This document shows positions 3,904 to 17,280 of a stretch of 64,000 nt of DNA, in pieces. The position numbers and the translations under genes were made by a program. Source of the DNA: Stegostoma tigrinum (taxonomy: Eukaryota); contig NC_081371.1 in NCBI RefSeq assembly GCF_030684315.1, forward strand, positions 48,862,390 through 48,926,389. The letters are read 5' to 3'. Below the pieces are notes generated by a model, which did no database searches, was not told the origin of the DNA, and saw only the letters and a list, made by a program, of their open reading frames with translations. The first letter of the stretch is position 1, and the number at the start of each line of letters is the position of its first letter.

Positions 3904-4046
3904 TGTAACTAGTTTCTCCAGACTTTCTATCTTAAGAATTTCTTCCCCACCTTTTGAAATGGTTTCCACTTGCGTACTCTTTATGGCTTGTAAAATGTCT
4001 TTCATACCACTTTCAAATTGTTTATTCTCTTCTACCAGTTTTTTTA
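3904..4046 (-). CDS. CEP290: CEP290 exon 20 (KKLVEENKQFESGMKDILQAIK...SLEKLVT)
   Basis: 143 nt, phase 1-0, CAG/GTAAGT. Confidence 0.96.
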
Positions 4047-5269: not shown

Positions 5270-5354
5270 ATTTGGCATTTAGTTGAGCGACTTCAGTCCT
5301 CGTTTCTTCCAATTCTTTTTCCTTTACTTCCAGTTCTCTTGAAATATATTCATT
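5270..5354 (-). CDS. CEP290: CEP290 exon 19 (NEYISRELEVKEKELEETRTEVAQLNAK)
   Basis: 85 nt, phase 0-1, CAG/GTAAGC; homologous to human NEFLSRELIEKERDLE. Confidence 0.95.
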
Positions 5355-5532: not shown

Positions 5533-8500
5533 AAAGTCAAAAGTGACTTGACACCAGGTTATAGTCCAACAGGTTTATTTGAAATAACAAGCTTTTGGAG
5601 CATAGCCCCTTCATCAGGTGAAGTGAGAGAGAAGCACACAGAACACAGACAGACCAAAAGATCATACAAATGGTGAGTGGACTGTTGAATAATAATAATC
5701 ACTACCTGCAGTATTAGGCGGTGAGAGAGAAGTGTCAACAGCTGAATAACAAACAAACAGATGATCCAGAATCCGATTAATTGAGACAGAGAAATAATTA
5801 CAAAAATATTAAAAATACTGTGGTGCTGGAGCCAAAACAGATGACTGGAATAACATGGTAGGTATAAGAGTTGCATGCCGAGGGTCTGTATAATTAAGGT
5901 AGAGAGATCGTAACAATTTATCTAGGTGATGGTATCAAAACAGGACAGTAAGGAAGATTTTACAGATACGGAACAGTGTGGTGGGGTCACCTGTATGCAC
6001 GACATGAACCCAAGATCACGGCTGAGGTCAGCTTCATAGGTACGAAACTCAGCTATCAGTCTCTGCTTGGCGATTCTGCGTTATTGTATATCTCGAAGGC
6101 TGCCTTGGAGGATGCTTACCCGAATATCGGAGGCTGAATGCCCTTGATCGCTGAAGTATTCCCTGAATGGGAGGGAACACATCTATCGAGTGATTGTTGT
6201 GCAGTGTCTTGCAGAGGTTGCCACGGCAGGATCACGTGGTGTTGCATTGAAGGCTGGGCAGTTTGCTGTGAACGATGGCCTGTTTAAGGCTGGGCAGTTG
6301 TTTGTGGAGGCACAAGGATGGACTTGGTGAGATGCTCGTCATCATTAATGACATGAAGGCTGCAAAGAACATGGCGCAGTCTCTCTGCTCTGGGGAAATA
6401 CTGGACAACAAAGGGTACGCTATCAATTGTATCCTGCGCCTGTCTTCTGAGGAGGTTGTTGCAGTTTTTCACTGTGGCACATCGGAAATGGCAATTGCAT
6501 GCATGCACACCACGAACAAGAAACTGGAGAAACTTGGCATCACCACCAGCAGTAACCAAGCCTCCCCTGGTACCACGGTTGAAACTGGTATCACCAGGGA
6601 AATTTGTCATCAACTTGTCTGACCATACTCTTCAACTGGACGAAATCGAAGTTCTCATCCAAGGGCTCAATTTCTGCCCCACTACCAAAATCGACCCCAT
6701 TGGTCTGGTGGCAGACACAGAAGAATTCATCAGGCCAATGGGGCTCTGGGAATTCTTTCACAAACCCCAAGATGTCAGCAGTGAACCCAATGAGACAACC
6801 AGTGAACCAGAGTAGTCGACAAGAGAGATCCACAGTGTAGTGACAACAGAAGAAAGGTTGATGTGAACCCCTCTAGAAAGCTGCTGTCCTATGCTCAACA
6901 TGTATGCTCAAGCCATCAAGAGATGCATTAACGCTAGATTAATCAGCTATGCTCACAAGATAGCACACAACGCAACCCATCCATGCTCTCAAGACGAATC
7001 AGAACACTGTCATCAAATCAGCAGACAAAGGAGGAGCCACTGTCATACAGAATAGAATGCACTACTGCAAAGAAACATACTGACAACTGAACAACCGGGA
7101 ACACTACAGACCAAATCCGACCAAAGAATATACCTGTCAACTGAACAGACTGGTCAAAACCTTTGATCCAGGTCTTCAAAGTATTCCATACACTCTCATC
7201 CCATGTACTTCCCACGTAGGAGATTTCTACTGCCTTCCAAAGATACATAAAGCCAACATACCTGGGTATCCCATCGTATCAAGCAATGGGACCCTGTGTG
7301 AGAAGCTCTCCGGCTATGTTGAGGGCATATTGAAACCCACTCTACAAAGAATCCCAGCTTCTGTTGTGACACTGCAGACTTCTCACCAGAAATTCAGCAC
7401 CCAGGGCCATTCCTCATCAGAATGGACATTTCTGCACTCTGCACCAGCACTCCCCTTGAGAATGGCAATGCTCCAACAACCTCAGTATTCAATACCATCA
7501 ACTGCCAATTTCCGGACGCCATCCTACAACTCATCATCGTCACCTTTGACAACCAGTTCTTTATCTAGACACACCGAGCAGCCATGGGAACCAAACTTGC
7601 TCCCCAATATGTCAACATTCTCATGCATAAGTTTGAGCAAGATTTGTTCTCTGGGCAGGACTTCCAACCAACACTATACACCAGATACATCGATGACCTC
7701 TTTTTCCTTTGGATTCATGGCGAGGAATCACTGAAATGACTATATAGCAATATCAACAAGTTTCATTCTACCATCACACTTCCCATGGACAACTCTTCCG
7801 AATCAGTATCATTCTTGGACACATGAATCTCCATCAAGGATGGACACTTCAGTAACTCACTCTCCTGCAAGTGCATGGATAACGTCACAATGCCGTTCTT
7901 CTGTAGCTTCTACCCTAAACAAGTTAAAGAAGCCATCACCGATGGAAAAGCTCTGTGCATTCACAGGATCTACTTAGATCAGGAGAAACATGATGGATAC
8001 CTAAAGATTTTGAAGGATGCCCTCATAAGAATGGAATATGATGCTCAACTCATCAATCACAAGATCCGACACGCCATAGCGAAAAACCACAATGACGTTC
8101 TCAGAAGGCAGGCACAGAATACGAACTGTAGAATACCTTTAGTTGTCCAGTATTTCCCTGGAGCAGAAAGTCTATGCTATGTTCTTCACAGACTTCACCA
8201 TATCATCAATGATGATGAGCATCTTGCCAAGGCTATCCCTACACCACCACTTCTTGCCTTTAAACAACCACCAAACTTCAAATAGACTATCATTTGCAGC
8301 AAACTAGCCAGCCTTCAGGACAACATCAGCCACAACACACCACAACCCCACGGCAATAGCTGCAAGACATTCCAGATCATCGACATGGAGACTACCATCA
8401 CACGTGGGAGCATCAGCCACCAAGTGCACAACAGATACTTATGTGACTCAGCCAATGTTGTCTATCTCATACGCTGCAGGCAAGGATGCCCCAAGGCATA

Positions 8501-9190
8501 GTATATTGGCAAGGCCATGCTGGCTCTCTGACAATGGCTGAATGGACACTCTGCAACGATTGCCAGACAGACATGTTCCCTCCCAGTCAGGGAACACTTC
8601 AGCAATCAAGAGCATTCAGCCTCTGATCTTCATGAAAGCATCCTCCAAGGCAGCCTTTGAGACACTCAACAACGGAGAATCACCAAGTGGAAGCTGATAG
8701 CTGAGGTTGAAACCCATGAAAACGGCCTCAACCGTGATCTTGGGTTCATGTCGTGCTACATGTAACCCCACCACACTGTTCTGTGTCTGTGAAATCTTCC
8801 TCACTGTCCTGTTTTGTCACCATCACCTGGATAAATTAAGATCGCTCTACCTTAATTAGTTTGTACAGTTTTGGATTACTTACAACTTTGGTTAGGCACT
8901 TGGCATGCGACTCTTATACCTACCATGTTATTTCAGTTATTTGTGTTGTCTCCAGCACCACCTTACTTTTAGTTTTTTGTAATTATTTCTCTGTCTCATT
9001 TATTTGGATTGTAGGTCATTCCTTTGATTGTTATTCAGCTGTTGCCACGTTTCTCACAACATTTAACACGTTGGATCACCTGCAGGTGGCCATCATTATT
9101 ATTATTCAATGCTCCACTCACTATTTGTATGATCTTTTGGTCTTTCTGCCCTTGATCTCTCTGCCCCTGAATTCTGTGTTCTGTGTGCAA
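5533..9190. mobile_element. Decayed Penelope-like element (second family): minus-strand 3' arm ~5533-6465 joined to plus-strand body ~6466-9190
   Basis: Frameshifted RT fragments (LSDHTL..EIEVL..GLNFCPT; aga tac atc gat gac = RYIDD at ~7683) and GIY-YIG remnants. The peptide LRRQAQ..P.VVQYFP.AE appears on both strands. Degenerate hammerhead core (cac CTGATGA aggggctatgctcc AAAA gc) at ~5590-5620 minus. Confidence 0.88.
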
Positions 9191-11720: not shown

Positions 11721-12597
11721 CGAGCAATTAATCCAGTCGGAACTGATCATTCACAAAAATGTAACTTCCTATGTCTCTTTTACCAGTTGGGAGGTTTTGC
11801 ACTGGCAGAAGCACAACATATTATTTTCTTGTTTAGTTTCTCTGGCGCATTTAAATCTTTTTATCATGATTTCACATTAATATCTCAGTAGAAGCACCCA
11901 AACCTCATTTACACATTGACCGTGGTCCAGATTTAATGGGGTGATAGGGATCTCATTTGCCCGAGCCCGTGCTTTCTCCTTTCAGGAAGTCTCACCAAAT
12001 TAAATCTCAATCAGGTGGCCAGTGGTGGGCCTTCACCAGGATCAAGGACCCTGGGGGTAAAAGCATTAAGAGTTGCTAACCATTTAGAAGCTGACAGCTA
12101 CTCATTGCTTGGCAGTGTCACAAGGGAGGTGGTAACGTTTGCCAGTAGCATAGTCATCCAAGGTCAAAGATACCAGGAATGCAGGTACAGGTGGATCATA
12201 GCAGGAGGGGTATCATTGGATTGGAGAGGGTGCTCCAAGTTTGCTCTCACCCATCCAATTGCTGTGCATTACAAAAGACATCAAATGCCTTTGAACTAGG
12301 GATCCTATCATTCTGCCACTGCATCGCGCATCCTCCCAATAGCAGTAGTGGAATAAGGCACTTAAGCAAGGAATTAATCAATTGGCAGTGAGGGAGTCGG
12401 GTTGCCACATGTGGTTAATTTTCCCTACATTAAACACTGCCCTTTTTTTTGTAAAATGGGAAAGGTTCCCTGGGTCTGCTCTCATGGTGTAAATTTGTTA
12501 ACAGAACTCTCTTACTGAGTGCAACCCAATAAAGCACCCACTTAAACATTTTGCATGTCTTTGGTTTTATCAGTCTTGTAAAGATAATTTGTACGAC

Positions 12598-12690
12598 CTG
12601 CATTATTTGCCTGTTGAGCTTGGCAAGTTCGAATTCTGCATTCTGGTATGCTCCTTCTTTGTTCAGTAGCTCCCCTCGTATCTGACGGTT
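12598..12690 (-). CDS. Candidate extra CEP290 exon '18b' (NRQIRGELLNKEGAYQNAEFELAKLNRQIMQ), paralogous to exon 19
   Basis: 93 nt, phase 0-0, acceptor cctctgtAG, donor CAG|GTCGTA. Ungapped alignment to the exon 19 peptide gives 10/28 identities. Confidence 0.65.
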
Positions 12691-13382
12691 CTACAGAGGT
12701 GCATTGAGTCAGTTAGAATACACAAAGAGATTTAATCAATGTTTCAATGTTAGATTCAGCTTTTTCACTTGGGAGTCTTTATATTCTGCTCAAAAAAACT
12801 TCTCATACTCATACACCAGGGCAGGCCCACTTTCAAGAAGGCCTGGTTTATCAAAGTCATGTGAATCCCATTGTAATCCCATGCTGCACGGAATTTACAG
12901 CAGTGGATTAAGGAATTAATTACATTGCAGGCAAATATGAAGCGTAAGCAATACATACCGCTTGGAAAATAACACAGAATACTATTAAGAAGCAAAGGCA
13001 TGTCATGGTATATACTGGTATTTACATTTTTTTTAAACAGTAGTGTACAGAGAAAACCTTCTAGAGGTCTAGAATTGTAAAGTGGTTTAGTTGCATTGAT
13101 ATTATCGTCAAAGCATGGTTAGTACTTTGTGTAGTTTGGTGTCTATATTATGGAAACAATATACAGACACTGAAAAAAAAATGCAAAAGTTGTTTATAAC
13201 AGTGATACTAGAATTGAGAGATTACACTCAGCATGAAAGATTGAATGGACTAGAACTTCTTTTTCTAGAAAAGAGAAGCCGGTGATACCACCAAATAGAG
13301 GTACTTAAAATTATGATGGACAGATAAATTGAAAATATTTTCCACTTGTGGAGAAGACCAGAACTAGAAGCCATACATACGG

Positions 13383-13640
13383 CTCAATTCCAGCCTTGGG
13401 TGACTGTGCAGAGTTCGCATGTTCTCCCCGTGTCTGCGTGGGTGACCTCCGGGTTTTCCAGTTTCCTCCCACAGTCCAAAGATGTGCAGATTAGGTGGAT
13501 TGGCTAAGCTAAATTGCACATGGTGTTGAGGCTGGGAAGTGCAGAAACTGGGCAGGGGGTGGGTCTGGGTCGGATGCTCTTCAGAGGGTCTGGACTTGAG
13601 GGGCCGAATGGCTTGTGTCCACACAGTAGGGATTCTATGT
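13383..13640 (+). mobile_element. HE1-like SINE (5'-truncated) within a CR1 fragment (~13040-13700)
   Basis: Same central domain and tail as 44509-44833. Confidence 0.82.
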
Positions 13641-13725
13641 TACAAGGCAGCCACTGATAAATCTAATACGGAGTTCTCTACAAGATCGTTCATCCAGAAT
13701 TCAGAATACAGAACTTGCCACCACA

Positions 13726-14070
13726 AGGCACAGTACTGTGGCTCAGTGGTTAGCACGGCTGACTCTCAGAATCAGCAACTCAGGTTCGATTCCACCCTTG
13801 GGCAACTTCCCTGGGGAATCTGCACATTCCTGTCCTGTCTGTGTGGGTTTCCTCCACGTGCTCTACTTTCCTCCCACCGTACAGAAGTGTGCAGGTTAAG
13901 GGGATTGGCCATGTTAAATTGCCAATAAATGGCCAGGGATTTGTAGGTTAAGTGAGTTAGCCATGGAAAATGCTGGGTTACAGGAACATGGGTGGGATGC
14001 TCTTTGGAGGATTGGTGTGTAATTGATGCGCCAAGTGGCCTGCTTCCACACTGTAGGGATTCGATGATCT
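13726..14070 (+). mobile_element. HE1-like SINE
   Basis: tRNA-like head gtggctcagtggttagcac…ggttcgattcc, V-domain and CR1-like tail. Confidence 0.82.
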
Positions 14071-14440
14071 CAACAGTATGGTGAAATAAGGTGCAGTTGA
14101 AGTGAATAGTTTGAGAAGCACACAAGGGAGAAAGTAACTGAAGAACATACTGATAGGGCAAGCTTAGGAGGGTGATAAACCAAAGAACTGAGAAATGCCT
14201 TCTCAATTAATGGCCTTTTGTAACTTCTGCGTCATTTGCCTGCACATACGCTAAATCAGTCAGATGGAAATTGGAGGCAATTCATTATCAGTAACTTAAT
14301 TACTCCAGCTATAACAGCATGCCTAGCACACTGTCTTTCAAAGTCAAGAATAATGTGCAAACACATGTTCTACAGTATTATTATAGGATGCTAAAGCTGA
14401 TTAAGTTCAAATATTTGTTCTATATTAGCAGATTTCTAAC

Positions 14441-14956
14441 CTGTGATTTAAGACTTGATAGTTCTAGCCTTAACTGCTCTAGGAGATCATCTAATGGGTC
14501 AACATTCTTGATAAAGTTCTTGGCTGGTTCTTCAGAATCAGTCACATGCACTGGCTGATCATTTCTAGTCGTGGGGATATCTGCTTGCTCAAGTGACACT
14601 GCTACAGCATTCTCAGTAAGCTCTGATATCTTTGTCAAAGTAGGTGGTAATGGTCCCGGCCTGGCTGGAGTTTCTAGTCGTTCAGACAGTTTGGTTTTTA
14701 ACTCATCAACAGGCTTTTTCTTTTCAAAATGTTCTTTTCTAGCCTGATGGGGAACAATCCGACTTTCTGTCTGGGAAGTCACCAATTCTTCCCAATGCAA
14801 AGAGCTCCTCTGAGAACTTCCTGACTGCCCTACAGACCTGTGAAGAATCTCTGAAATCTGGCTGGACATTTTCCTTAGCGCAAGATCTTTATAGTAATCA
14901 ATGTCAGCAGAGCCTTGCCTTCCTTTGACGTAATAAAAATCATTTCTACTGTTATC
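14441..14956 (-). CDS. Candidate extra CEP290 exon '18a' (172 aa, DNSRNDFYY...LEQLRLELSSLKSQ)
   Basis: 516 nt without stops, phase 0-0, acceptor tgctctgtttttatacAG and donor CAG|GTTAGA. No repeat hallmarks. S/E/K/P-rich with a coiled-coil-like C-terminal end. No counterpart in the human CEP290 sequence as I recall it. Confidence 0.7.
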
Positions 14957-15998: not shown

Positions 15999-16105
15999 CT
16001 TATGGTTTAATTCAAAGTTGAATGAGCTTGACAGTTCTGTCTCTTTGCTAGTACTTATCCTCTCATTAAACGAATCCACCAATCCCAGATCCTCAGCTGA
16101 AATTC
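15999..16105 (-). CDS. CEP290: CEP290 exon 18 (ISAEDLGLVDSFNERISTSKETELSSSFNFELNHK)
   Basis: 107 nt, phase 1-0, TAG/GTAATC. Starts like human GLTTEDL and diverges after that. Confidence 0.85.
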
Positions 16106-17192: not shown

Positions 17193-17280
17193 CTCCCACA
17201 CCTGCTCGCATGCCTTTATCTTGAGCCATCCTACGAATTTGCCTCTTTAACACCAATCTTTCTTCCTCCAAGCGTTCAAT
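17193..17280 (-). CDS. CEP290: CEP290 exon 17 (IERLEEERLVLKRQIRRMAQDKGMRAGVG)
   Basis: 88 nt, phase 0-1, CAG/GTAAGC boundaries. Confidence 0.96.

What the first reader, a model, noticed from the sequence alone, without database searches (positions are those of the whole stretch)
12598..12690. Diverged tandem duplicate of CEP290 exon 19
Seen: a 93-nt AG/GT-bounded segment encoding NRQIRGELLNKEGAYQNAEFELAKLNRQIMQ. It aligns without gaps from residue 1 to exon 19 (NEYISRELEVKEKELEETRTEVAQLNAK) with 10/28 identities (N, I, E, L, K, E, E, A, L, N). Both begin immediately after the acceptor. It ends in phase 0, not phase 1, so it cannot replace exon 19 and could only be added before it. It is too short for the ORF track. 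Inference: an old exon duplication that, with exon 18a, adds 203 aa to CEP290.
Basis: partly seen in the sequence, partly recalled or inferred. Interest (0 to 1): 0.7.

Follow-up and report, generated by a model that had tools for sequence, protein, structure and literature searches.

The report
Conserved optional exon in shark CEP290
A 93-base stretch inside the shark cilium gene CEP290 encodes 31 amino acids that are identical in three carpet sharks and that public gene models include in some versions of the protein and skip in another, so it is likely a real optional exon predicted to lengthen the protein's rod, while its proposed birth as a copy of the next exon is only weakly supported.

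Summary
The segment is real: minus strand, 12690-12598, AG/GT-bounded, phase 0/0, in intron 18 of a carpet-shark CEP290, with 10/28 identities to exon 19. It is already annotated. The same 31 residues, unchanged, stand between exons 18 and 19 in 5 of 6 RefSeq models from whale shark and whitespotted bamboo shark; the sixth skips them. The two species differ at 30 of 286 neighbouring residues and 0 of these 31. So it is most likely an alternatively spliced, conserved cassette exon that extends the exon 19-20 coiled coil by 31 residues. Origin by duplication of exon 19 is about even odds: shuffles are beaten easily, but 0.5-2.7% of real in-register CEP290 coil windows match exon 19 as well, and segments of exons 21 and 6 match the new exon as well or better. 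No RNA reads were available, and full-length CEP290 proteins over 2,000 aa could not be searched, so range beyond sharks is open. No paper or earlier scan note on it was found.

The parts
12598..12690 (-). The finding: 93-nt in-frame cassette exon of CEP290 ('18b'), 31 aa, phase 0/0
   Evidence: identical peptide in XP_048448602.1 and XP_043565821.1.822.1.823.1.826.1, skipped in XP_043565825.1
12691..12720 (-). Acceptor region of 18b with AG and a branch-point-like heptamer at 12718-12712 (consensus recalled)
12590..12597 (-). Weak donor of 18b: GT with 0 of 4 consensus matches at +3..+6, the only such donor of 21 scored in this gene
12510..12515 (-). Alternative strong phase-1 donor in the same open frame, not used by any model seen
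   Evidence: 0 of 6 shark models
14441..14956 (-). Candidate 516-nt exon '18a', 172 aa, phase 0/0; conserved in an unnamed record, absent from the six shark models
15999..16105 (-). CEP290 exon 18 (ends phase 0), upstream splice partner of 18b in the models
5270..5354 (-). CEP290 exon 19 (phase 0/1), downstream splice partner and proposed parent
3904..4046 (-). CEP290 exon 20
17193..17280 (-). CEP290 exon 17

Best explanation
The segment encodes 31 residues that are identical in three carpet sharks and is likely a regulated cassette exon of CEP290 that is spliced between exons 18 and 19 in some transcripts and skipped in others, where it is predicted to lengthen the exon 19-20 coiled coil, and it possibly arose as an old copy of exon 19. 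How it works: (shown) it keeps the frame, and RefSeq models of two other sharks exist with and without it, without exon 18a; (inferred) its unusually weak donor makes inclusion depend on splicing regulators; (predicted) its residues form helix continuous with exons 19-20 and start in the same heptad register as exon 19, so inclusion adds four heptads plus a three-residue register shift, about 4.6 nm of rod, right after the flexible exon-18 linker; (inferred) this alters spacing or partner binding in the N-terminal half of CEP290 at the ciliary transition zone in some cell type; (about even odds) the exon descends from a duplicate of exon 19 that kept the acceptor and gained a donor 8 nt further on, which made it frame-neutral and so additive, not mutually exclusive.
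For: Peptide identical in window, Rhincodon typus and Chiloscyllium plagiosum (31/31 each), while window exons 18, 19, 20 match C. plagiosum at 28/35, 25/28, 41/47. R. typus vs C. plagiosum: 30 differences in 286 residues of exons 14-20 outside the exon, 0 in 31 inside (binomial P 0.032; 0.008 against exons 18-20 only). 5 of 6 shark RefSeq models include it, 1 skips it. Donor weakest of 21 at +3..+6. AlphaFold2 on the whale-shark fragment: one helix 218-332, pLDDT block means 85-93 over 241-310; the exon is residues 244-274. Same heptad register from residue 1 as exon 19, first four core residues the same. For duplication: adjacency, same start phase, top rank among 984 AG-started segments, higher score to shark and carp exon 19 (36, 31, 32) than to tetrapod exon 19 (16-25).
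Against: RefSeq XP records are predictions; I did not see their read support, and all six are partial models of 350-998 aa. Only three closely related carpet sharks carry the evidence. 0 of 10 non-shark CEP290 records that span the exon 18-19 junction show an insert there, though these are single, mostly truncated records of at most 2,000 aa. Against duplication: 9 of the 10 identities fall on a, d, e, g heptad positions, where coils converge; tblastn E 0.3-0.36 within the window; 5 of 662 in-register CEP290 windows reach score 36 against exon 19 and 18 of 662 reach the mean score against seven exon-19 orthologues; the new exon scores a mean 31.2 against an exon-21 segment and 27.4 against an exon-6 segment versus 25.0 against exon 19; no shared flanking intron sequence; 3' boundaries differ. 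The structure model is a monomer with pTM 0.25 and shows helix propensity only.
Confidence: 0.75

Rival explanations
1. The exon is real, but its likeness to exon 19 is coiled-coil convergence: it is an ancient or independently gained exon shaped by the need to continue the same heptad register.
For: 9 of 10 identities on a/d/e/g positions; equal or better matches to segments of exons 21 and 6; 0.5-2.7% of 662 real in-register windows match exon 19 as well; no intron similarity, tblastn E about 0.3.
Against: Only the exon-19 match is anchored at an acceptor, adjacent and in the same phase; the exon 21 and exon 6 matches start inside exons; the exon-21 match is weakest in the shark itself (23 versus 28-37).
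Confidence: 0.45
2. One reading: 18a and 18b are spliced together as one module adding 203 aa.
For: Both are phase 0/0 and lie 1,750 nt apart; 18a is conserved (41% over 150 aa, same donor position) in an unnamed record; the 18a tail has a heptad pattern in register with the start of 18b and of exon 19. A rarer isoform with both is not excluded.
Against: All 5 models with 18b join exon 18 straight to it; 0 of 6 models contain 18a; no protein of 302-2,000 aa with 18a was found among 1,304 candidates (weak evidence).
Confidence: 0.15
3. 18b is a mutually exclusive alternative to exon 19, using the phase-1 donor at 12515 to join exon 20.
For: An open frame reaches a consensus-like phase-1 donor 82 nt downstream.
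Against: The 27 extra residues are hydrophobic and not coil-like; 5 of 5 including models end at the first donor and keep exon 19.
Confidence: 0.04
4. It is not a functional exon: a chance AG/GT segment or conserved non-coding element that gene predictors picked up.
For: Very weak donor; models are predictions; DNA-level conservation could not be examined, so synonymous divergence is unknown.
Against: Independent annotation with the same ends in two other species, 31/31 identity, coil-like composition ranking top among 16 phase-0 candidates in intron 18, confident helix.
Confidence: 0.05

Closest known systems
RefSeq predicted CEP290-like isoforms: Chiloscyllium plagiosum XP_043565821.1 (X1), .822.1 (X2), .823.1 (X3), .826.1 (X5) with the exon, XP_043565825.1 (X4) without; Rhincodon typus XP_048448602.1 with it
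   Same: Identical 31 residues at the same place, same ends
   Different: Nothing in the exon itself; these are unreviewed predictions with no description of the exon, and none contains 18a
Tandem exon duplication-derived alternative exons (Ivanov and Pervouchine 2022, PMC9013439, first quarter of text read; Martinez Gomez et al. 2021, PMC8373072, passages and supplement search)
   Same: Adjacent exon with detectable similarity starting at the same acceptor position and phase
   Different: The described cases are mostly mutually exclusive substitutions; this one is an insertion beside the proposed parent. DNA identity (42%) is below the 57% that the first paper's search detected; CEP290 does not occur in the second paper's main text or its one supplement
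Retina-enriched alternative exons of vertebrate CEP290: 21-nt exon 8 microexon (Murphy 2016 PMC4991804; Matalkah 2022 PMC9509328), and in Ciampi 2022 (PMC9303857, Dataset S1) two zebrafish 21-nt exons, a zebrafish 885-nt exon and a chicken 556-nt exon
   Same: Conserved alternative exons in the same gene; the shark also has the exon 8 microexon and a model that skips it
   Different: No 93-nt CEP290 exon among the 8 CEP290 rows of that dataset; tissue pattern of the shark exon unknown; whether the 885-nt or 556-nt exon corresponds to shark 18a was not testable

Membership tests
Conserved in-frame cassette exon | AG/GT ends, length a multiple of three, symmetric phase, no stop | tested here: met
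Conserved in-frame cassette exon | Both inclusion and skipping forms exist | tested here: met
   5 including and 1 skipping RefSeq model of 6; predictions, read support not seen
Conserved in-frame cassette exon | Sequence under purifying selection | tested here: met
   0 of 31 versus 30 of 286 differences between two sharks, P 0.032; protein level only
Conserved in-frame cassette exon | Junction reads in this species | not testable with these tools
   No RNA run listed
Tandem exon duplication-derived exon | Lies next to the proposed parent on the same strand | tested here: met
   7,243 nt upstream of exon 19, no other exon between in the models
Tandem exon duplication-derived exon | Similarity to the parent beyond what composition and fold give | tested here: inconclusive
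   Shuffles P 3e-5 to 8e-3; real coil windows 0.5-2.7%; exons 21 and 6 match as well
Tandem exon duplication-derived exon | Matching exon boundaries and phases | tested here: inconclusive
   5' end matches (phase 0, residue 1); 3' end does not (93 nt phase 0 versus 85 nt phase 1)
Mutually exclusive homologous exon pair | One exon replaces the other in the transcript | tested here: not met
   5 of 5 including models keep exon 19
Photoreceptor-specific CEP290 exons (Musashi or SRRM3/4 regulated) | Retina-enriched inclusion | not testable with these tools
   No RNA; no 93-nt row among 8 CEP290 rows for human, mouse, chicken, zebrafish
Photoreceptor-specific CEP290 exons (Musashi or SRRM3/4 regulated) | UAG-rich downstream intron | tested here: not met
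   1 UAG in 200 nt after 18b (range 1-7 over 22 exons); 18a has the most, 7; a crude count

The most novel reading that the evidence does not exclude
Intron 18 of CEP290 holds an old pair of independently regulated coding exons (18a and 18b) shared across jawed vertebrates, 18b born from exon 19 and 18a being the counterpart of the retina-enriched 885-nt zebrafish exon, which together make tissue-specific long CEP290 rods that the canonical 2,479-aa picture, patient screening and gene-therapy designs leave out.
Probability: 0.25. Interest if true: 0.65.

Novelty: new member of a known kind. Interest (0 to 1): 0.32.

Why it matters
CEP290 is a central transition-zone protein and a major ciliopathy and blindness gene. 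An alternative exon whose 31 residues are more conserved than the constitutive exons beside it points to an isoform-specific function in a region usually drawn as plain rod. As it stands this is an already predicted, undescribed shark exon of a familiar kind. It would matter more if orthologues exist in bony vertebrates and humans, since variants there would be read as deep intronic. If the duplication is right, it is a tidy case of a duplicate exon becoming additive through a donor shift, not mutually exclusive.

Tried and rejected
No whole genome is held. No RNA holder listed among 4 runs: no evidence either way; contigs of 2 of the 4 were laid and showed only genomic continuity. Pfam: 0 families for 18a, 18b, exon 19 and for six further proteins. 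ESM Atlas: no usable hit for 18a; for 18b only generic coiled-coil clusters scoring under 0.9, not used. Search for longer proteins with 18a: 0 of 1,304 candidates, limited to 302-2,000 aa. The 50% representative search with 18a gave 1 hit. All three homologue searches were capped at 2,000 aa, so full-length CEP290 isoforms were never examined. Metagenome scans: 0 of 76 and 0 of 597 pattern matches confirmed. The first profile test included three badly aligned rows in the exon-19 columns; it was redone with seven clean rows; one of the 8 of 404 N-start hits is a record's own exon 19, corrected. The heptad-class shuffle leaves many residues in place and is only a rough control. Literature: ten searches found no description of this exon; passages of PMC11450717, PMC13704990, PMC11225895, PMC12650716 and supplement searches of PMC10111803, PMC3924432, PMC8373072 gave nothing on it; files 13-18 of PMC9303857 and file 11 of PMC4991804 were not searched and could bear on orthologues. 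Identifiers of longer human isoforms that I recalled gave 0 papers. Earlier scan notes: nothing on CEP290. No complex prediction was sent, as no binding claim is made.

Full report
Setting. Exon 20 is 98% identical to whale shark and 87% to whitespotted bamboo shark, so the organism is by inference a carpet shark close to the whale shark.

Observation. The segment 12690-12598 (minus) is 93 nt, AG/GT-bounded, phase 0 at both ends, and encodes the 31 residues quoted. It has 10 of 28 identities with exon 19 from residue 1, score 36, and 36 of 85 identical bases. Contigs of 2 of 2 laid runs cover it without a listed difference, so it is not an assembly error, though those runs may be the window's source.

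Is it an exon? A search with exon 20 returned 3 proteins among 24 candidates, and their clusters three more. Of these six RefSeq models, five carry the 31 residues unchanged between exons 18 and 19 (R. typus XP_048448602.1; C. plagiosum X1, X2, X3, X5) and one skips them (X4, XP_043565825.1). Between the two species 30 of 286 residues of exons 14-20 differ outside the exon and 0 of 31 inside (P 0.032; 0.008 against exons 18-20 alone). Its donor has 0 of 4 consensus matches at +3..+6, alone among 21 donors scored, which fits partial, regulated inclusion (inference). These models are predictions; that NCBI builds such isoform sets from transcript alignments is my own knowledge, and I did not see the reads. 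No RNA run was listed for this species, which says nothing about expression.

Exon 18a. The 516-nt segment 14956-14441 is open, phase 0/0. One of 1.84 billion representatives matches it (E 1.8e-13): an unnamed open frame, 41% identical over 150 residues, that reads into unrelated sequence right at the same donor position. So 18a is probably a real exon too. But 0 of the 6 shark models contain it, and all five that include 18b join exon 18 to it directly. The insert that is documented is 31 aa, not 203; a rarer form with both is not excluded.

What inclusion would do. AlphaFold2 on the 350-aa whale-shark fragment (10-row alignment) gives one helix from 218 to 332 with pLDDT block means of 85-93 over residues 241-310, after a low-confidence exon-18 linker (202-231); the exon is residues 244-274. 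The model is a monomer with pTM 0.25, so it shows helix propensity only. The exon and exon 19 both start at heptad position a. As 31 = 4 x 7 + 3, inclusion would add four heptads and one three-residue register shift, about 4.6 nm of rod at 0.15 nm per residue (textbook value). That this tunes spacing or partner binding at the transition zone is inference.

Origin. Shuffle controls are beaten: P 3e-5 in fixed register, 1.2e-3 at any offset, 8e-3 when residues are shuffled only within heptad classes; and the exon is the best match to exon 19 among 984 AG-started open segments. Real coiled coil is a harder control. Among 662 in-register windows of six CEP290 proteins outside exon 19, 3 reach 10 identities, 5 reach score 36 and 18 reach the mean score of 25.0 against seven exon-19 orthologues; over all 9,160 windows the figures are 5 and 19. 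In the other direction the exon scores a mean 31.2 against a segment of exon 21 and 27.4 against a segment of exon 6, above its 25.0 against exon 19. Nine of the ten identities sit on a, d, e or g positions. Unanchored tblastn gives E 0.30-0.36, and the flanking introns share nothing. For duplication speak adjacency, the shared acceptor position and phase (the exon 21 and exon 6 matches begin inside exons), and higher scores to shark and carp exon 19 than to tetrapod exon 19. I put duplication at about 0.55.

Range. The third search gave 14 proteins among 1,733 candidates, and clusters added two. Of 13 non-shark records, 10 span the exon 18-19 junction (anole twice, pangolin twice, carp, sea krait, quail, two pipefishes, a tubeworm) and 0 of 10 have an insert there; 3 end before exon 19. 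All searches were limited to 2,000 aa, so these are mostly truncated or odd models and full-length isoforms were never seen. I recall, from no call, human predicted isoforms longer than the canonical protein by 31 and by 287 residues; searches for the recalled identifiers found 0 papers and I could not check where those inserts lie.

What is known. Ten paper searches found no account of this exon. Known conserved CEP290 alternative exons are the 21-nt photoreceptor microexon (PMC4991804, passages and supplement rows; PMC9509328, passages, where deleting it in mice gave no phenotype). Dataset S1 of PMC9303857 (passages and supplement rows) has 8 CEP290 rows: mouse and zebrafish 21-nt exons, a zebrafish 885-nt exon (retina PSI 88.8 versus 3.4) and a chicken 556-nt exon; none is 93 nt. 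The long ones are leads for 18a, position untested. Tandem exon duplication is common and mostly tied to mutually exclusive splicing (PMC9013439, first quarter read; PMC8373072, passages, no CEP290 in text or supplement). The exon works like a conserved in-frame cassette exon and passes that membership test at the level of gene models; it fails the test for a mutually exclusive pair; membership among duplication-derived exons is inconclusive.

Verdict. A real, strongly conserved, probably alternatively spliced 31-residue exon of shark CEP290, already predicted in RefSeq but undescribed; the 203-aa claim is unsupported and the duplication is about even odds. New member of a known kind, interest 0.32.

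Noticed in passing
window 27382-27362, minus strand: A 21-nt AG/GT-bounded microexon between exons 12 and 13, matching the 7-residue optional insert of C. plagiosum models X1, X3, X4, X5, carries an in-frame stop codon in this sequence: a lost or poison microexon, or a sequencing error. Zebrafish has two 21-nt retina-enriched cep290 exons. Not checked against reads.
   Followed up: partly
window 32604-32584, minus strand: The known 21-nt photoreceptor microexon (exon 8) is intact here; C. plagiosum model X3 skips it.
   Followed up: partly
window 14956-14441, minus strand: Exon 18a: mostly low-complexity linker with a conserved N-terminal patch and a 20-residue heptad tail (18 of 20 identical to P0002); its downstream 200 nt have the most UAG motifs (7) of 22 exons, a weak hint of Musashi-type retinal regulation.
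   Followed up: partly
window about 13286-14190: High-copy repeats (contig depth up to about 1e6) lie between 18a and 18b.
   Followed up: no
window about 6270-8540, plus strand: Several broken open frames that look by eye like a decayed retroelement in the intron between 18b and exon 19; Pfam gave 0 families for four of them at E 0.01.
   Followed up: partly
window 16026: Both laid runs differ from the window at this base in exon 18; by my reading of the frame it is a silent third-position change.
   Followed up: no
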